Source: Rhodobacter sp.
Lineage (GTDB): Bacteria > Pseudomonadota > Alphaproteobacteria > Rhodobacterales > Rhodobacteraceae
NCBI GenBank assembly: GCA_027490955.1
Contig: JAIXXB010000032.1
Location: 60,102-124,101 of the forward strand
Reading direction: 5' to 3'
DNA length: 64,000 nt
The notes beneath the pieces were generated by a model, which ran no database searches, was not told the DNA's origin, and saw only the letters and a program-made list of their open reading frames with translations. The position numbers and the translations under genes are program-made. This document shows, piece after piece, positions 18,078 to 57,817 of this stretch; the first letter of the stretch is position 1; each line of letters starts with the position of its first letter.

Positions 18078-18836
18078 ATGAGCAAGCTGCCCACTGTTCC
18101 TAACCCCGACCTTGACCGCGCGATTGCCGAATTGGCCCGCGCTTATCGGCGCGCAAATGGCCCTGTGATTGGGCTGATGCAGCGCTTTGGCGGCACGCTG
18201 GAATCGCAGATGAACCGCCTGCCGCCGCAGGTTCGCGTGCAGATGGAACGGGCTATCGTGGCAGTGCTGATGCAGGCGCATTCTTTGGCAGGCCACAGTG
18301 AAAGGGGCCCGCAATTGGGCCGCACAGGGGTAATGGCCGCGGCCATGACCACGGGCGCCGCAGGCGGGGCAGGGGGGCTGGCCAGCTCGCTTGTGGAATT
18401 ACCCATCACCATCACGGTGTTTTTGCATGCCATCAGGGCAGAGGCCCGCAGCGCAGGTTTTGATCCCGACAGCGATGGTATCCGCGCCGCCTGCCTAGAG
18501 GTGTTTTCCGATGCCAGCCCTTTGCGCCAAGATGACGGCATGAACACCGCCTTTTTATCTGCCCGCCTTGCGCTGACGGGGCCTGCGGTGCATAAAATCA
18601 TCGCCACAGTCGCACCGCGCTTGGCATTGGTCTTGGGCCAAAAGCTGGCCGCGCAAACTGTGCCGATTTTGGGCGCGGCAACAGGGGCAGCGATCAATGC
18701 GGCCTATCTGTCCTATTACCGCGAAATCGCGCGCATCCGCTTTGCCTTGATGCGCCTTGCGCAAAGCCACGGCGGCGAGGCTGTAGCCAAAGCCTTCGAA
18801 TCCGCCTGCACACCCAAAATCACCAAGGCGCGCTGA
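18078..18836 (+). CDS. EcsC family protein
   Basis: [35 protein letters not shown] and RFALMRL patterns. Confidence 0.75.
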
Positions 18837-18840
18837 TGGT

Positions 18841-18912
18841 TTCTTCTTTTTCCAAGTATCCCGGGGGTGAACCTGTTTGCCCCTTTGCAAACAGGTGAGG
18901 GGGCTGGCCCCC
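18841..18912 (+). repeat. Interspersed structured repeat, copy A
   Basis: TTCTTCTTTTTCCAAGTATCCCGGGG leader, GTGA, hairpin ACCTGTTTGC/GCAAACAGGT, then GGGGGCTGGCCCCC hairpin. Confidence 0.85.
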
Positions 18913-24074: not shown

Positions 24075-24198
24075 TGGATGCTCCGCTTCAATCTGGCCGC
24101 GTCATAATGGGGCAGGGGCGGGGGTGCAAGCCCTGATGCGGCGGGTGGGCTGTGGGGGCGGAGCCTTCGGCGAGGATATTTGTGCCAAAGTGAAAGGG

Positions 24199-32004: not shown

Positions 32005-32160
32005 GTGCGCCCTCGGGTTATGCCAGACACCCTTAATGCTGCGATGCAACATTGGCGTGACGCGCGAATGACGAATTTGTAAATTCGCGCAAGCCTGCCT
32101 TGCCCGGCCCGCCCCAATCTGGGTGGTTGACCAATCCTCCCCCAAGGGCTAATAGCCACG

Positions 32161-32213
32161 CGTGGCGCTTTGTTACCAGATTGCGGGCCACGTTAAACAT
32201 TCCGCTAAAAGGG
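32161..32213 (+). ncRNA. SAM-II (SAM_alpha) riboswitch aptamer upstream of metZ
   Basis: P1 CGTGG/CCACG, loop GCTTTG, TTGC, TTAAAC and 3' GCTAAAAGGG match the SAM-II consensus. It lies directly upstream of a methionine biosynthesis gene. Confidence 0.85.
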
Positions 32214-32224
32214 TTAGGGTTATT

Positions 32225-32259
32225 GCCCCGAAGCCCGTTGGTTTCGGGGTTTTTTATTT
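32225..32259 (+). terminator. Intrinsic terminator in the metZ leader (expression platform)
   Basis: GCCCCGAAGC / GTTTCGGGGT stem followed by TTTTTATTT, 16 nt before the metZ ATG. Confidence 0.8.
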
Positions 32260-40390: not shown

Positions 40391-40479
40391 GGTAAAATTA
40401 CGCTTCGCGCGCCCGCGCCCAAGGGCCACCGCAGGCGCGCAGGCTTTCAGGATAAGGGTGAAAAGACAGACGGCCTTGC

Positions 40480-40554
40480 TTCTTCTTTTCTCAAATATCC
40501 CACGGGGGTAGGCTTGCGAGCCTGCTCGCAAGCGCGGGGGTGTGAAACCCCCGC
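40480..40554 (+). repeat. Interspersed structured repeat, copy B
   Basis: TTCTTCTTTTCTCAAATATCCCACGGGG leader, GTAG, hairpin GCTTGCGAGC/GCTCGCAAGC, then GCGGGGGT..ACCCCCGC hairpin. Confidence 0.85.
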
Positions 40555-45200: not shown

Positions 45201-46211
45201 ATGGAATACCTGCGCCCCATCCCCCAGTTTGATCCCGCCCGCCCCGCGGATGCGCTGCCTTTGGCGGGGGGCTTGGGCTGGTTCGCCCAAGTCGAGGTGA
45301 TCACGCGCCATCAGCCAGCGCGGATTATGGCCGCGTCTGATCTGCCCCTTGCCGATGCGCAGCGCCTGTCTGCGCCGCGGCCCCATTTCGCGGGCCTGTC
45401 GCTGGATCGCCCGCGCGTGATGGGGATTTTGAACATCACGCCTGATAGCTTTTCGGACGGCGGGCTGTTTTTGGCCCCAGAGGCCGCGCTGATGCAGGCG
45501 CGGCGGATGGCGGCGGCGGCCGATATCATTGACATTGGCGGCGAATCCACCCGCCCTGGCGCGGCCGAGGTCGCAGCCGAAGAAGAAGTGCAGCGCACCG
45601 CCCCTGTGATTGCGGCGCTGCGGGCAGGGGGGCTGGATGGCCCAATCTCGATTGACACGCGCAAAGCGGCGGTTGCGCAGGCGGCCTTTGCCGCGGGGGC
45701 CAGCATTTTGAACGATGTCACCGCCTTGCAATATGACCCTGCTATGGCGGGGATGGCCGCGGCGGCGCAAAGCCCTGTGATTTTGATGCACTCGATCAAA
45801 ACCCCTGCAACGATGCAGGATGATCCGCAATATGACGATGTGCTGCTGGACGTCTATGATGCCCTTGCAGCGCGCATCGAGGCAGCGGCGGCGCAGGGCA
45901 TTGCCCGCGCGCGCATCGCCATTGATCCCGGGATCGGATTTGGCAAAACGCTGGCGCATAATTTGGCCCTGCTTGCGCGGTTATCGCTGTTTCACAATCT
46001 TGGCGTGCCTGTCTTGCTGGGCGCCTCGCGCAAGCGATTTATCGGCACGATTGCCCGCCAAGACGAGGCCGCGCGCCGCATGCCGGGCAGTTTGGCCGTG
46101 GCGCTGGCGGGGGCGGCGCAGGGGGTGCAGATGATCCGCGTGCATGATGTAGATGAAACGCGCCAAGCGCTAACGCTTTGGGCTGCGGCAACCATGGGAT
46201 ATGAGATATGA
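45201..46211 (+). CDS. folP: Dihydropteroate synthase
   Basis: [45 protein letters not shown] and RVHDV motifs. Confidence 0.96.
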
Positions 46212-47551
46212 GCGCAAAGCTTTTTGGCACGGATGGCGTGCGCGGTCGGGCCAACCAATATCCGATGACGGCGGAAATGGCGCTGAAATTGGGGGCGGCG
46301 GCGGGGCGGTATTTTCGCCGCTCGGGCATGGCTGCGCATCGGGTCGTCATTGGCAAAGATACGCGCCTGTCGGGCTATATGCTGGAAAATGCGCTGACTG
46401 CGGGGCTGACATCGACAGGGATGAACGTGCTGCTGCTGGGCCCCGTGCCAACCCCTGCCGTGGGGTTTTTGACGCGCTCGATGCGGGCCGATTTGGGGGT
46501 GATGATTTCGGCCAGCCATAACCCTGCCGATGACAATGGGATCAAGTTTTTCGGCCCTGATGGGTTTAAACTGTCAGACGCCGCCGAGGCCGAGATTGCC
46601 GCCATGATCGCGGGCGATATTGAACTGGCCGATGCCGCCGATATTGGCCGCGCCAAGCGGATTGACGATGCGATGGGCCGCTATGTGGAATATGCCAAAA
46701 CCACCTTCCCGCAGGGGCTGCGGCTGGATGGGCTGAAAGTGGTGATCGATTGCGCCAATGGCGCGGCCTATAAGGCGGCCCCGCTGGTTTTGTGGGAATT
46801 GGGGGCCGAGGTGATCTCGGTCGGCGTTGGCCCAAATGGGCGCAATATCAACGATCGCTGCGGGTCGACCTATACGCAAACAGCGGCCGAGGCGGTGGTG
46901 GCCCACGGCGCGCATGTGGGTATTTCGCTGGATGGCGATGCCGACCGCGTGATGATTTTGGACGAAACCGGCACAGTGGCGGATGGCGATCAGATCATGG
47001 CGCTGATGGCCTCGTCTTGGGCCGCAGAGGGGCGGCTGCGCGGGCAGACGCTGGTGGCAACAGTGATGTCCAATTTGGGGCTAGAGAGGCATTTGCGCGG
47101 GCAGAACATCGCGCTTTTGCGCACGGCGGTGGGTGACCGCTATGTGGTCGAAGCCATGCGCAAGGGCGGGTTCAATCTGGGCGGCGAACAATCGGGCCAT
47201 ATCGTGATGACCGATTACGCCACCACGGGGGATGGGCTGATTGCAGGCTTGCAGTTTCTGGCGGAAATCGCCCGCACGGGGGCCGCGGCCAGTAGCTTGG
47301 TGCGCCAGTTTGACACTGTGCCGCAGATGCTGAAAAATGTGCGCTTTGCCTTGGGCAAAAAGCCGCTAGAGGCCGATGCCGTTCGAGCGGTCATCGCCGC
47401 CAATGAGGCGCGGATTGAAGGAAAGGGCCGTATCCTGATCCGCAAATCCGGCACGGAACCCCTGATCCGCGTGATGGCGGAATGCGAAGATGCGGGGCTG
47501 CTGGCGGAAGTTGTGGGCGATATCGTCGCGGCGGTTGAGGCGGCGGTTTAG
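46208..47551 (+). CDS. glmM: Phosphoglucosamine mutase
   Basis: [28 protein letters not shown] and RKSGTEP motifs. Confidence 0.97.
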
Positions 47552-47608
47552 GGGGCTTTGCGCCCCCTCGCTGCGCTCACCCCCGCAGGATATTTCTAAA
47601 AAGAAGAA
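47551..47608 (-). repeat. Interspersed structured repeat, copy C
   Basis: Reverse strand reads TTCTTCTTTTTAGAAATATCCTGCGGGG-GTGA-GCGCAGC-GAGGGGGCGCAAAGCCCCC. Confidence 0.85.
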
Positions 47609-47629: not shown

Positions 47630-47687
47630 TTCTTCTTTTTACAAGTATCCTGGGGGTGAGGCCAGAGGCCGAGGGGGCGACGCCCCC
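47630..47687 (+). repeat. Interspersed structured repeat, copy D
   Basis: TTCTTCTTTTTACAAGTATCCTGGGG-GTGA-GGCCAGAGGCC-GAGGGGGCGACGCCCCC. Confidence 0.85.
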
Positions 47688-55048: not shown

Positions 55049-55726
55049 TTGCCCCATGGCGCGGTTAGGGTGCACCAAGCGGAGGATAAGTTGCAAAAAG
55101 ACGCCTATACCTTGATTCTCGAGGCCATCGAGTCTGGCGATTTTGGTCCAGGGGCGCGGCTGGTGGAAAGCGAACTTGCCGAAAGGATTGGCCTGTCGCG
55201 CACCCCTGTGCGCGAGGCGCTGCAACGTCTGGAAACGCAAGGGATGCTGACGCGCGATGGGCGGTCTTTGATTGTGGCCAGCCTAGATCATACGCAACTG
55301 GCCGAGCTATACACCGTGCGCGCCGAGCTTGAGGGGCTGGCCGCCAAACTGGCCGCGCGCCATGCCACCGATGAAGAGATTTCGGTTTTGCGCCGCATGG
55401 TGCAAGATGACCGCGCGCTGCTGGGCGGCGATCCGCGCCTGCTGAGCCGCGCGAATAAGCGGTTTCACCGCCTGATCCACCTTGCGTCGCACAACCGCTT
55501 TTTGGTGCAGCAATTGGATTTGGTGCACCGATCTATGGCGCTGATGGCGACCACGTCTTTTGCTGCCGCAGGGCGCGATGAGGTTGCGCTGGGCGAACAT
55601 TCGGCCATTGTCGAGGCGATTGCCGCCCGCGATGGCGAGGGTGCCTTTGCTGCGCTGCGCGGGCATATTTCCAAAGCCTATGAGACGCGCTTGCGGGTGG
55701 ATGCGGGCGAGTTGAAGACGCGCTAG
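55049..55726 (+). CDS. GntR family regulator (FCD domain)
   Basis: LVESELAERIGLSRTPVREAL HTH and FH..I..ASHN FCD motif. Start uncertain. Confidence 0.9.
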   Translation: MPHGAVRVHQAEDKLQKDAYTLILEAIESGDFGPGARLVESELAERIGLSRTPVREALQRLETQGMLTRDGRSLIVASLDHTQLAELYTVRAELEGLAAKLAARHATDEEISVLRRMVQDDRALLGGDPRLLSRANKRFHRLIHLASHNRFLVQQLDLVHRSMALMATTSFAAAGRDEVALGEHSAIVEAIAARDGEGAFAALRGHISKAYETRLRVDAGELKTR

Positions 55727-55746: not shown

Positions 55747-55820
55747 AGGGGCCTATGCGGCCCCTACGAGGGTTTGCGGGGCAAACCCTCTACCCCGCAG
55801 GATATTTGGGAAAAGAAGAA
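55747..55820 (-). repeat. Interspersed structured repeat, copy E
   Basis: Reverse strand reads TTCTTCTTTTCCCAAATATCCTGCGGG-GTAG-AGGGTTTGC/GCAAACCCT-C-GTAG-GGGCC..GGCCCC. Confidence 0.85.
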
Positions 55821-55855: not shown

Positions 55856-57817
55856 CTAATCGTCAAACAGGCCATGGGCGGTTTTGTCCCAGTAAAACGG
55901 CTTGGTCAGCACTTCGTAGACGGCTTTGTAGGCGGCAAGGCTGGCCAGTAGGTTATAGGCCATCATCGTGGGCAGCCACAGCGGGTTGATGCGGTGGCCT
56001 GCGCGGGCAAGGCCGATGTAAGAGGTCAGCAGCATGGCTGCTTCGGCCAATAGGCCAAGACCCAAGGTGGTTTGCACGGGCAAGGGCAGGTTCACAGACA
56101 AAGGATGGCTGGCCACAAGCGGCAGCAGCCATAGGGCAGTGATGAAAGGGGCCAGCAGCGCCTGAAGCACTGTTCCTGCAAACATCATCTGCATGCCGAA
56201 AAACCGCCATGGCCCCAAATCGCGCAACAGCGCGGCAGGGCGGCGCATATGGTTGGCATAGGTCATGATATAGCCTTTGATCCAGCGCGAGCGTTGCTTG
56301 ATCCAAGGCACTGCGCGGCAGTTCGCCTCTTCATAAGTGGTGCTGTCAAGCAGCTGCATGTCATAGCCGCGCCGCACCAGTCTTAGGCCCAGATCAGCAT
56401 CTTCGGTGACGTTATGGGCATCCCACCCGCCAAGATCGCGGATGATATGGCTGCGAAAGAACAAGGTTGTACCGCCCAAGGGAAGGGCAAAGCCCATGCG
56501 CGCGAAACCCGGAAGCACAACGCGCCACCATGCGGCATATTCGATCGTGAAACAGCGCGCGAGCCAGTTGTGCTGGGGGTTGTAATAATCCAGCCGCCCT
56601 TGCAGGCAGGCAAGGCGCGCACCGCCTGCGGCAAATCCCTGCGCCACGGCGCGCAATTGGCCCGCCTCGGGCGCATCTTCGGCATCATAAACGCCGATGA
56701 TTTGGCCTTTGCAGTGATCCAGCCCATAGTTCAGCGCGCGCGGTTTGGTGCGGATCGTGCCTGTGGGCACAGGCAGCACCCGCATCCATGGCGGCAAGGT
56801 GATGCTGGCAAGTGCCGTGGCTGTGGCGCGGTCATTATCTTCGATCAGAAAGATCACCTCTTGCGCTGTGCTGGGGTAATCCAACCTTTCCAGCCGCCGA
56901 ATGAGGCGGGCGACGATACGGCTTTCGCAAAAGAGGGGCACGAGAAGCGAGATAAAGGGCAGGCTCGTATCTGAAGGCACAAGGTGCAGGTGGTGGGGCG
57001 GGCTGGGCAGGGGTTGCGCGCCTGCGGGCGGCGCGGGCAGGGGCTGCGGCCGCATCTGCGTGGGTGGGGCAGGCGGCGCAGGGCGGCGCAGCGCCGCCAA
57101 AAGCGCCGCCAATTTCAGCAGGGTTTGGCCATAAGATAAGGCCAGTGCAAGGCTCAGCAGGGCCAGCGCGGCCATGCTGGGTGCGGCGATCACGCCAGCG
57201 CCCACCAGCGCCGCAAAGGCGCATAGCGGGGCATAGGTGCGGCGGGGCGAGAAATTGCGGCAGCTGTCGGTTTCGGGCAGCAGCGTTTCGGCGCGGCGGG
57301 CAAGGGCCGTGCCTGCACGCGCCAGCACCTGCGCCGCAATCACGCGCCGCGGGGCAAGGGCCAGCACAAGCGCGCCAAACAGGGGGGTGAGGCGGGCGCG
57401 CAGCGCGGGGAAATCTTCGGGATAGGCGCAGACGATGACTGTCTTTGCGCCGATCCTGCGCCAAGGCAGCCAATGCTCGGCAAGGCAGCTTGCCGCATCG
57501 ATGCGCGCGATCAGGGCCGTGTCCACGGGGTGGCGCGTGAAATCGGCCACGCCCACCGCCCAATGCGCGGCCAGCGCGGCATAGGCCTCCTCCTCGTCCA
57601 TCAGACCGCGCGTCATCAGATGATCCACCAGATGGATTTGCGGGGTTTTCAGGGCGGCAAGCAGGGTCGGAGCAGAAATGCGCCCCGCGCGCAGCAGGGC
57701 AAGGCCGAAGGCGCAGCTGGCATGGTCAGCGAGATGCGGGCGATTGCGCCCCCTGCCATCTGGCACGGCGCGGGCATTCAGGCGGGCAATGGGGCGCAGC
57801 GAGGCGAGAGACATCAC
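55856..57817 (-). CDS. Processive GT2 glycosyltransferase with N-terminal MshEN/GspE-N-like domain (NfrB-like architecture)
   Basis: TKPRALN, YDAED, TED and QRSRW motifs plus TM helices. N-terminal FGLALLRAGRI..L..AL / LVDHL..RGLM repeats. AAGGAG RBS. Confidence 0.85.
   Translation of the reverse strand: MMSLASLRPIARLNARAVPDGRGRNRPHLADHASCAFGLALLRAGRISAPTLLAALKTPQIHLVDHLMTRGLMDEEEAYAALAAHWAVGVADFTRHPVDTALIARIDAASCLAEHWLPWRRIGAKTVIVCAYPEDFPALRARLTPLFGALVLALAPRRVIAAQVLARAGTALARRAETLLPETDSCRNFSPRRTYAPLCAFAALVGAGVIAAPSMAALALLSLALALSYGQTLLKLAALLAALRRPAPPAPPTQMRPQPLPAPPAGAQPLPSPPHHLHLVPSDTSLPFISLLVPLFCESRIVARLIRRLERLDYPSTAQEVIFLIEDNDRATATALASITLPPWMRVLPVPTGTIRTKPRALNYGLDHCKGQIIGVYDAEDAPEAGQLRAVAQGFAAGGARLACLQGRLDYYNPQHNWLARCFTIEYAAWWRVVLPGFARMGFALPLGGTTLFFRSHIIRDLGGWDAHNVTEDADLGLRLVRRGYDMQLLDSTTYEEANCRAVPWIKQRSRWIKGYIMTYANHMRRPAALLRDLGPWRFFGMQMMFAGTVLQALLAPFITALWLLPLVASHPLSVNLPLPVQTTLGLGLLAEAAMLLTSYIGLARAGHRINPLWLPTMMAYNLLASLAAYKAVYEVLTKPFYWDKTAHGLFDD

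What the first reader, a model, noticed from the sequence alone, without database searches (positions are those of the whole stretch)
18841..18912. Family of structured interspersed repeats with a fixed leader, GTAG/GTGA tetranucleotide and swappable hairpin (5 copies)
Seen in the sequence: copies at 18841-18912 (+), 40480-40554 (+), 47551-47608 (-), 47630-47687 (+) and 55747-55820 (-). All share the leader TTCTTCTTTTnnnAARTATCCYRnGGG, then GTAG or GTGA directly 5' of a hairpin whose sequence differs in each copy but stays self-complementary (minimal in copy C), then a GGGG(G)..CCCC(C) hairpin. All are intergenic near gene 3' ends, and in four copies the terminal hairpin abuts a stop codon. 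Established: a GTAG tetranucleotide 5' of a hairpin is the signature of REP elements processed by HUH Y1 (RAYT/TnpA-REP) nucleases. Inference: a REP-like, ssDNA/RNA-structure-recognised element family with an unusual conserved pyrimidine-rich leader, probably numerous genome-wide. No cognate nuclease lies in this window.
Basis: partly seen in the sequence, partly recalled or inferred. Interest (0 to 1): 0.7.

Follow-up and report, generated by a model that had tools for sequence, protein, structure and literature searches.

The report
Triple-helix-forming repeat family of Rhodobacteraceae

Summary
All five copies exist (0.01 expected by chance). The window's genome holds about 90 copies with the full architecture.

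The family is confined to one GTDB family, Rhodobacteraceae in the broad sense. About 37 of 100 sampled genera have 10-140 copies; the rest are at background.

The REP/RAYT reading fails. GTAG occurs in 4 of 91 copies. The genome has no Y1 transposase. Across 101 genera, the 13 that carry a Y1 gene are all element-poor.

The architecture is: leader, AAATATCC core, 1-3 nt spacer, G-run (G1), variable palindrome, G-run (G2), loop, C-run. New findings:
- G1, G2 and the C-run co-vary in length.
- Where the runs carry an interruption, G1 is the mirror image of G2, with A or T opposite the A·T pair (25 distinct copies, no direct repeats). This is the purine-motif triplex code.
- The spacer is complementary to the 5' side of the terminal loop (z = 7.4).

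I infer an intrastrand triple-helix pseudoknot on the G-rich strand, most likely as DNA.

Copies sit just behind stop codons. Between related species they are gained, lost, decay and swap hairpins. The closest known elements are the BoxC/PIT/TMECO triplex repeats of E. coli. How the copies spread, and what they do, remain unknown.

The parts
18841..18912 (+). Copy A. Leader 18841-18853, core AAGTATCC 18854-18861, spacer C 18862, G1 18863-18867, connector palindrome 18868-18898, G2 18899-18903, loop CTGG 18904-18907, C-run 18908-18912.
   Evidence: It fills the 77-nt gap between convergent stops at 18836 and 18914. Orthologous copies exist in G010, G017 and G014; the site is empty in G006.
40480..40554 (+). 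Copy B. Leader 40480-40492, core 40493-40500, spacer CAC 40501-40503, G1 40504-40508, palindrome 40509-40535, G2 40536-40540, loop TGTGAAA 40541-40547 (GTG pairs with the spacer CAC), C-run 40548-40552.
   Evidence: DNA fold z = -5.1. At the orthologous site, G010 has a palindrome with a compensated T:A to C:G change and G017 has no palindrome at all (connector = CGC).
40450..40469 (-). Decayed remnant (GGATAAGGGTGAAAAGACAG) of a head-to-head partner of copy B.
   Evidence: G017 and G010 carry an intact partner copy at this position (GGATATTTGCAAAGAAAAGAA preceded by hairpins).
47551..47608 (-). Copy C. Leader 47596-47608, core 47588-47595, spacer TGC 47585-47587, G1 47580-47584, mini-palindrome 47568-47579, G2 47563-47567, loop CGCAAAG 47556-47562 (GCA pairs with the spacer TGC), C-run 47551-47555.
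   Evidence: The stop codon TAG of ORF 46208..47551 overlaps the hairpin. The G010 ortholog has run lengths 6/6/6 instead of 5/5/5.
47630..47687 (+). Copy D, head-to-head with copy C. Leader 47630-47642, core 47643-47650, spacer T 47651, G1 47652-47656, palindrome 47657-47672, G2 47673-47677, loop CGACG 47678-47682, C-run 47683-47687.
   Evidence: The G017 ortholog has the same terminal hairpin and flank but a different palindrome. G006 and G014 have an empty site; in G006 the two stop codons overlap (TTAG).
55747..55820 (-). Copy E. Leader 55808-55820, core 55800-55807, spacer TGC 55797-55799, G1 55793-55796, palindrome 55765-55792, G2 55761-55764, loop CCGCATAGG 55752-55760 (GCA pairs with the spacer TGC), C-run 55748-55751.
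   Evidence: z = -4.7. It lies between convergent ORFs 55049..55726 and 55856..57817. The copy is decayed in G017, and the site is empty in G006 (TAG-GGCTTGCC-TCA).
24160..24197 (-). Related type-2 copy: leader CCTTTCACTTTGGCAC, core AAATATCC, spacer TC, mini-hairpin GCC-GAA-GGC. It has no G-run module.
   Evidence: It shares the core and the spacer-loop rule (TC pairs with GA).

Best explanation
These are copies of a non-coding interspersed DNA repeat specific to Rhodobacteraceae. It is mosaic in build and non-autonomous. In its genomic habits it resembles the REP/BIME and BoxC repeats of enterobacteria.

Each copy has a handle and a structural module.
- The handle is a pyrimidine-rich leader plus the invariant core AAATATCC.
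- The module folds within one strand, the G-rich one.

Inferred fold:
- G2 and the C-run form a hairpin stem.
- The upstream G1 run lies antiparallel to G2 in the major groove as the third strand of a purine-motif triple helix (G*G.C, with A*A.T or T*A.T at interruptions).
- The variable palindrome is only the connector between G1 and G2.
- The 1-3 nt spacer before G1 pairs with the 5' side of the terminal loop. The whole is therefore an H-type pseudoknot with a triplex.

The purine motif is reported not to form in RNA, and copy orientation ignores the direction of transcription. The fold is therefore most likely adopted by single-stranded or extruded DNA.

Shown: the copies lie directly behind stop codons, and between species they are gained, lost, eroded and re-assorted module by module.

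Inferred: the fold and the handle are what a trans-acting factor recognises. That factor is unidentified and is not a RAYT. The fold also makes these sites obstacles to polymerases and hot spots of rearrangement, as reported for E. coli TMECO.
For: Copy number and range
- About 90 copies with the full module in the genome.
- 105 G-linker-G-loop-C modules, against 8 in the reverse block order; 84 of the 105 follow TATCC.
- Confined to one GTDB family: 156 and 73 hits, against 0-9 in 249 other alphaproteobacterial genomes. Patchy within the family.

Triplex covariation
- G1 = G2 length in 80% of copies and G2 = C-run in 92%. Classes: 4/4/4 (9 copies), 5/5/5 (39), 6/6/6 (19), 7/7/7 (2).
- An orthologous copy changed from 5/5/5 to 6/6/6.
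- Two reciprocal, unbiased selections (on G1 alone; on the hairpin alone) give 25 distinct copies in which G1 is the mirror of G2. None is a genuine direct repeat. They show at least 8 different arrangements of Gs around the interruption. The third-strand base is A in 20 copies and T in 5.
- The T variants exclude a pyrimidine-motif triplex on the other strand. The interruptions exclude an alternative Watson-Crick G1:C-run hairpin.

Spacer-loop pairing
- TGC pairs with GCA in 7 different loops; also CAC/GTG, TAC/GTA, CGC/GCG, AC/GT and TC/GA.
- Permutation tests: 36 of 60 classes against 15.6 +/- 2.9 expected. The signal is register-specific, z = 7.4.
- The same rule holds in the mini-hairpin copies.

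DNA rather than RNA
- Palindrome stems: 742 Watson-Crick pairs, 16 mismatches, only 3 G.T.
- In co-directional gaps, 28 copies lie one way and 22 the other.
- No orientation bias against GC skew.
- PMC4666352 states that the purine motif cannot form in RNA and shows by CD and NMR that the analogous E. coli TMECO repeat forms a triplex as DNA.

Dynamics
- Filled and empty orthologous sites, palindrome swaps and palindrome loss.
Against: - No physical evidence exists for the triplex. ViennaRNA cannot model it and simply leaves G1 unpaired.
- For uninterrupted G-runs, which include every copy in this window, a G1:C-run alternative hairpin is equally possible. The mirror evidence comes from relatives.
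- The spacer-loop pairing is only 2-3 bp, and its register shifts by one between subfamilies.
- In the minimal copies (connector TGC or TCC) the linker is very short for a fold-back third strand.
- Related copies are not independent, so shared descent inflates the counts.
- No mobilising or binding factor was found, and no target-site duplication could be defined.
- The role of the conserved leader is unexplained.
- 77% of copies have T after the C-run, and the position behind genes also fits a terminator role.
Confidence: 0.55

Rival explanations
1. RNA-level element. The copies are intrinsic terminators or 3'-UTR stabilisers; the G/C hairpin stops RNA polymerase or 3' exonucleases, and the G1 run and spacer form an RNA pseudoknot.
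For: - The hairpin end or the leader end lies within 0-25 nt of a stop codon in most copies. Only 1 of about 120 lies between divergent genes.
- Some copies are the whole spacer between convergent genes.
- T follows the C-run in 70 of 91 copies.
Against: - Orientation relative to transcription is nearly random in co-directional gaps (28 against 22).
- In the commonest arrangement the adjacent gene transcribes the C-rich strand, and there the hairpin is not followed by a U-tract.
- Only 28 of 91 copies have TTT within 6 nt, and the terminator scan flags none of the terminal hairpins.
- The stems are perfect Watson-Crick with almost no G.U.
- The A/T third-strand code fits the purine motif, which is reported not to form in RNA (PMC4666352).
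Confidence: 0.2
2. REP/REPIN elements mobilised by a RAYT (HUH Y1) transposase.
For: - Extragenic palindromic repeats in high copy number.
- About 14 inverted (head-to-head) doublets.
- GTAG or GTGA next to the hairpin in the five window copies.
Against: - GTAG occurs in 4 of 91 copies.
- The genome has no Y1_Tnp gene.
- Among 101 genera, none of the 28 element-rich genomes has Y1_Tnp, and all 13 carriers are element-poor.
- In the doublets the leaders face each other, so the hairpins are on the outside.
Confidence: 0.03
3. There is no higher-order structure. The length match, mirror symmetry and spacer-loop complementarity are linked variants inherited from a few master copies (hitch-hiking), and only the two ordinary hairpins matter.
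For: - Copies fall into subfamilies in which the spacer and loop types go together.
- Many interrupted copies share the CGGAGGGGTCCGGGGAGG skeleton.
Against: - The mirror relation holds in at least 8 different arrangements, in both polarities and with either A or T.
- No simple copying or inversion step that I can identify yields a reversed but uncomplemented sequence (inference).
- The same spacer trinucleotide pairs with its complement inside 7 different loop sequences and in a second architecture.
- All three runs changed together at one orthologous site.
Confidence: 0.1
4. The conserved core is a recombination site. The repeats are a dispersed family of attachment sites for tyrosine-recombinase islands, or products of that recombination.
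For: - In this genome, three copies have leader + AAATATCC + TC + GGGGG + TGA joined at the same base to a shared region. That region holds TTGCA-type repeats and an integrase gene.
- Distant integrase homologues in four other genera have AATATCC about 70 nt upstream of their start.
Against: - No integrase lies near the element in about 200 element-bearing loci from other genera.
- Close homologues of this integrase are absent from 95 of 100 other genera.
- It does not explain the triplex covariation.
- It more likely reflects an island that targets the repeat, as some insertion sequences target REPs (from memory).
Confidence: 0.1

Closest known systems
BoxC / PIT (potential intrastrand triplex) / TMECO repeats of E. 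coli and other Enterobacteria (Hoyne et al. 2000, cited from memory and via PMC4666352; Holder et al. 2015, PMC4666352)
   Same: - A short intergenic interspersed repeat made of three G/C blocks on one strand that satisfy the purine-motif triplex.
- Tens to about 140 copies per genome, patchy between related taxa.
- No strand bias, frequent inverted pairs, and no associated transposase.
- The loci are rearrangement-prone.
   Different: - The block order is reversed (third strand-G-C here, C-G-G in TMECO), and there is no sequence similarity.
- The stems are shorter (4-8 nt against 9 nt).
- The connector is often a 10-40 nt variable palindrome rather than a 3-nt loop.
- A conserved leader and core precede the module, and a spacer-loop pseudoknot pairing is present.
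- Copies sit at gene 3' ends, whereas TMECO lies more often upstream of ORFs.
- The host family is different.
- Here the support is comparative covariation; for TMECO it is CD and NMR.
REP / BIME / REPIN elements with RAYT transposases (PMC2817692, PMC3116915, PMC3733652)
   Same: Extragenic palindromic repeats in high copy number, of mosaic composition, arranged in inverted doublets and preferring gene 3' ends.
   Different: - No conserved GTAG or CGTC tag.
- No RAYT in the genome, and anti-correlation with Y1_Tnp across the family.
- A long conserved non-palindromic leader.
- A third G-run that has no counterpart in REPs.
H-DNA (intramolecular triplex at homopurine-homopyrimidine mirror repeats in duplex DNA)
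   Same: Mirror-repeat purine tracts and the reverse-Hoogsteen G*G.C / A*A.T code.
   Different: All three strands of the triplex lie on the same DNA strand (G1, G2 and the C-run). The fold therefore needs single-stranded or extruded DNA, not just supercoiled duplex. The mirror halves are separated by a hairpin.

Membership tests
REP/REPIN-RAYT | Conserved GTAG (or CGTC) tetranucleotide at the foot of the palindrome | tested here: not met
   GTAG in 4 of 91 copies, GTGA in 35 of 91, other tetranucleotides in 52 of 91.
REP/REPIN-RAYT | A cognate Y1 HUH transposase (RAYT) gene in the same genome | tested here: not met
   No PF01797 match in the 95%-complete genome. None of 28 element-rich genera has it; all 13 carriers are element-poor.
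REP/REPIN-RAYT | Short extragenic palindromes in high copy number, often as inverted doublets | tested here: met
   About 90 copies and about 14 head-to-head pairs.
BoxC/PIT/TMECO intrastrand triplex repeats | Three consecutive blocks on one strand that obey the purine-motif code, with the third strand antiparallel to the purine strand | tested here: met
   Length match. Mirror relation with A or T opposite the A.T pair in 25 distinct copies, and no direct repeats.
BoxC/PIT/TMECO intrastrand triplex repeats | Consensus CCCTCNCCC-N3-6-GGGNGAGGG-N3-GGGNGAGGG (order C-G-G, 3-nt second loop) | tested here: not met
   The order here is G-G-C: 105 modules against 8 in the TMECO order. The connector is 3-45 nt and there is no sequence similarity.
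BoxC/PIT/TMECO intrastrand triplex repeats | Triplex formation shown physically (CD, NMR, footprinting) | not testable with these tools
   Requires bench work.
Intrinsic (Rho-independent) terminator | G/C-rich hairpin followed directly by a U-tract on the transcribed strand | tested here: inconclusive
   T is the first base after the C-run in 70 of 91 copies, but TTT occurs within 6 nt in only 28 of 91. The scan does not flag the terminal hairpins. Orientation is not tied to transcription.
MITE | Terminal inverted repeats and a target-site duplication | tested here: inconclusive
   Single copies have no terminal inverted repeats. The filled/empty comparisons were too diverged to define junctions.
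Rfam RNA families | Match to a curated covariance model | tested here: not met
   Only chance microRNA-like hairpin hits far below the gathering scores.

The most novel reading that the evidence does not exclude
The element is a selected, family-wide single-stranded-DNA structure: a triple-helix pseudoknot. It would be recognised by machinery not yet identified, either a new kind of structure-specific mobilisation system or a host system that marks gene ends. As far as I could find, it would be the first natural nucleic-acid triplex whose base-triple code (G*G.C, A*A.T, T*A.T) is demonstrated by comparative covariation across genera rather than by biophysics on one sequence.
Probability: 0.35. 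Interest if true: 0.9.

Novelty: new variant of a known kind. Interest (0 to 1): 0.74.

Why it matters
- Intrastrand DNA triplexes in bacteria are known mainly from one enterobacterial repeat and from database counts. Whether the triplex itself is under selection has been open.
- In this family, natural variation across dozens of genera follows the triplex pairing rules, including the A-or-T choice opposite an A·T pair. That is the kind of evidence that established RNA secondary structures.
- The question becomes testable in abundant marine bacteria, some of them cultivable.
- The family is a natural set of sequence variants for biophysics.
- It flags about 100 sites per genome that may stall polymerases, break assemblies and attract integrative elements.
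- It warns annotators that these sites are neither REPs nor simple terminators.

Tried and rejected
- Rfam, at gathering and at permissive thresholds: no family.
- RAYT/Y1 transposase: absent from the genome and anti-correlated across the family.
- Orientation against the replication strand (GC skew): no bias, 30 against 41.
- Wobble-pair asymmetry to identify an RNA strand: the stems are too perfect to be informative.
- Alternative G1:C-run hairpin (a switch model): excluded for the interrupted copies.
- Pyrimidine-motif triplex on the C-rich strand: excluded by the five T variants.
- Target-site duplication: a possible 15-bp duplication at the C/D site did not recur. The other filled/empty pairs carry extra unrelated sequence.
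- A gene flanked by inverted copies, in the manner of a REPtron: only ordinary gene clusters were found. The proteins were not annotated.
- The integrase as a general partner: absent near copies in other genera.
- Sigma-70 promoter reading of the leader: by eye, the spacing of the candidate hexamers does not fit.
- Literature searches for this element in Rhodobacteraceae found nothing.
- Earlier notes of this scan held nothing on it.

Full report
**Observation**

The leader pattern TTCTTCTTTTNNNAARTATCC matches five times in the window with no mismatch; shuffles predict 0.01 matches. The window is C33:60102-124101 of a 2.96 Mb, 59% G+C genome in 42 contigs. Genome-wide, a tolerant search finds 82 leader hits, all but about two being true copies. 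Parsing finds 82 type-1-leader and 9 type-2-leader copies with the full 3' module. The family is therefore real and numerous.

**Anatomy**

Every full copy reads as follows:
- a pyrimidine-rich leader;
- the core AA(A/G)TATCC;
- a spacer S1 of 1-3 nt;
- a G-run (G1);
- a connector, which ranges from 3 nt to a 40-nt perfect palindrome;
- a second G-run (G2);
- a loop;
- a C-run, then usually T.

Folding the strand as DNA gives the two hairpins and leaves G1 and the leader unpaired.

The core AAATATCC occurs 267 times in the genome. A second leader type (CCTTTCAYWTWGGCnn) shares this core. It is followed either by the same G-run module or by a mini-hairpin such as GCC-GAA-GGC. The family is thus mosaic.

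The module is specific in three ways:
- The genome holds 105 G-linker-G-loop-C modules, against 8 in the reverse block order.
- 84 of the 105 are preceded by TATCC.
- They account for most of the genome's 140 G(5+)-loop-C(5+) hairpins.

**The REP/RAYT reading fails**

- The tetranucleotide after G1 is GTGA in 35 of 91 copies, GTAG in 4 and something else in 52.
- The genome has no Y1_Tnp match.
- In 101 genera of the family, 13 have Y1_Tnp. All 13 have 0-5 hits to the element pattern, which is background. None of the 28 genomes with 20 or more hits has the gene.
- Rfam has no matching family.

1. *Run lengths match.* G1 = G2 in 80% of copies and G2 = C-run in 92%. The classes are 4/4/4, 5/5/5, 6/6/6 and 7/7/7. 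The orthologue of copy C in relative G010 has 6/6/6 where the window has 5/5/5.

2. *G1 mirrors G2.* Some relatives have runs that carry an interruption. I selected copies on G1 alone (pattern AATATCC-N1-5-GGAGGGG over 300 genera). Reciprocally, I selected on the terminal hairpin alone (GGAGGGG-loop-CCCCTCC).
   - In 25 distinct copies G1 is the mirror image of G2: reversed but not complemented. The C-run is the Watson-Crick complement of G2.
   - No genuine direct repeat was found.
   - The examples span at least eight different arrangements of Gs around the interruption, in both polarities.
   - The G1 base at the mirrored position is A in 20 copies and T in 5.
   - This is the code of the purine-motif triple helix: the third strand runs antiparallel to the purine strand, with G*G.C and A*A.T or T*A.T triples. 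PMC4666352 summarises the motif.
   - The interruptions rule out a G1:C-run alternative hairpin. The T variants rule out a pyrimidine-motif triplex on the complementary strand.

3. *S1 complements the loop.* S1 is complementary to the 5' side of the terminal loop.
   - TGC pairs with GCA in seven different loop sequences. CAC/GTG, TAC/GTA, CGC/GCG, AC/GT and TC/GA also occur.
   - Permuting spacers among distinct classes gives 36 of 60 matches observed, against 15.6 +/- 2.9 expected.
   - The signal is confined to one register (z = 7.4) and is absent in the registers on either side.
   - The type-2 mini-hairpin copies obey the same rule: TC-GAA, GC-GCA, CC-GGA and TT-AAA.

**Inferred fold**

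S1 pairing with the loop places G1 antiparallel beside G2, with the connector closing the turn. Topologically this is an H-type pseudoknot whose first loop forms a major-groove triplex with the second stem. This is inference from covariation and nothing physical was measured.

**DNA or RNA**

Four observations point to DNA:
- The connector palindromes are almost perfectly Watson-Crick: 742 pairs, 16 mismatches, 3 G.T.
- Orientation is not tied to transcription. In co-directional gaps 28 copies lie one way and 22 the other.
- Orientation is not tied to the replication strand.
- PMC4666352 states that purine-motif triplexes cannot form in RNA. It shows by CD and NMR that the analogous E. coli repeat forms the triplex as DNA.

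**Genomic habits**

- The hairpin end faces a gene's 3' end in about 86 of 120 scored sites, often within 0-25 nt and sometimes overlapping the stop codon. Only one site lies between divergent genes.
- Copy A fills the 77-nt gap between two convergent stops. The stop codon of ORF 46208..47551 overlaps copy C.
- About 14 pairs are head-to-head, with the leaders adjacent.
- As terminators the copies look weak. T follows the C-run in 70 of 91, but a TTT run is present in only 28, and the scan flags none.

**Evolution**

- The element is confined to one GTDB family. Named genera carrying it include Albidovulum, Thalassobius, Thalassovita, Gemmobacter, Cypionkella, Pseudorhodobacter, Roseovarius, Paracoccus and Lentibacter.
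- About 37 of 101 sampled genera have 10 or more hits, up to 141. The rest are at background.
- Leaders differ between lineages and are uniform within a genome.
- Orthologous sites in same-genus relatives show:
  - empty sites (G006 at sites A, C/D and E; G014 at C/D);
  - a palindrome replaced while the terminal hairpin and flank stay the same (copy D against G017);
  - a compensated stem change (copy B against G010);
  - complete loss of the palindrome (copy B in G017);
  - decay (copy E in G017; the partner of copy B in the window).
- No clean junction or target-site duplication could be defined.

**A side finding**

At three contig ends of this genome the sequence leader-core-TC-GGGGG-TGA is joined, at the same base, to a shared region. 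That region holds TTGCA-type repeats and a tyrosine-integrase gene. This suggests an integrative island that uses the repeat as its attachment site. The integrase is not near copies in other genera. Distant homologues in four genera also have AATATCC upstream of their start.

**Comparison with known elements**

The closest described elements are the BoxC/PIT/TMECO repeats of E. coli (PMC4666352). These are intergenic, show no strand bias, occur in inverted pairs, have no transposase, are patchy between relatives and lie at unstable loci.

The present family differs in several respects:
- block order;
- sequence;
- the hairpin connector;
- the leader and core;
- the spacer-loop pairing;
- position behind genes;
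- host family.

That paper and its held supplements do not mention Rhodobacter, Paracoccus or the roseobacter genera. No paper on this element was found.

I file it as a new variant of a known kind. What moves the copies, what the leader binds, and whether the fold benefits the host all remain unknown.

Noticed in passing
window 24160-24197 (-), and about 29 places genome-wide: A second leader type, CCTTTCAYWTWGGCnn-AAATATCC, followed by mini-hairpins with GNA or AAA triloops. The two bases before the stem are always complementary to the first two loop bases: TC-GCC-GAA-GGC, GC-GCC-GCA-GGC, CC-GCC-GGA-GGC and TT-GCC-AAA-GGC.
   Followed up: partly
own genome C26:221563, C1:228602, C27:2673 (outside the window; loci L226, L228, L229): Three copies are cut right after G1-TGA and joined to a shared ~240-nt region with TTGCA-type repeats and a tyrosine-integrase gene (MATITKLPSGKYRAQIRRNG...). 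All three lie at contig ends. The C26 integrase is interrupted by an IS3-family transposase. This looks like an integrative island that uses the repeat as its attachment site.
   Followed up: partly
loci L233-L236 (genomes G082, G031, G125, G111): Distant homologues of that integrase (about 40% identity over 70 residues) are preceded, about 70 nt upstream, by a near-identical stretch ...CTGGAATACGCCCCAATATCCCCGAATTTGCCCC. The AATATCC core may be part of this integrase family's attachment site.
   Followed up: no
window 40450-40469: Eroded remnant of a head-to-head partner of copy B. The partner is intact in relatives G017 and G010.
   Followed up: yes
own genome C7:37921-38060: One copy is followed by a tandem array of its terminal hairpin plus spacer: (TGCGGGGGGCTGGCCCCCCGCCTGTRGRCTTGG) repeated.
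   Followed up: no
loci L176, L186, L193, L197 (four genera): A conserved stretch ACCACTTTCTCTTTCTGGGCTCTATCCACAGTTTCACTCCAAGT, followed by a GGAGGGG-loop-CCCCTCC hairpin. It looks like the 3' end of a conserved non-coding RNA or gene with its terminator and is unrelated to the repeat.
   Followed up: no
window 32152-32229 (+): SAM-II (alphaproteobacterial SAM) riboswitch, Rfam RF00521, 54.5 bits.
   Followed up: no
genome G339 (another alphaproteobacterial family, f17): Nine hits to the AAATATCC-N0-5-GGGG pattern (six listed places read AAATATCCCGGGG), against 0-3 in most genomes outside the Rhodobacteraceae. This may be a related element outside the family, or chance.
   Followed up: no
genomes G043 and G247 (loci L211-L214, L218, L220): In some genera the core reads GTACTCC or ATACTCC instead of ATATCC, while the triplex module is kept.
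   Followed up: no
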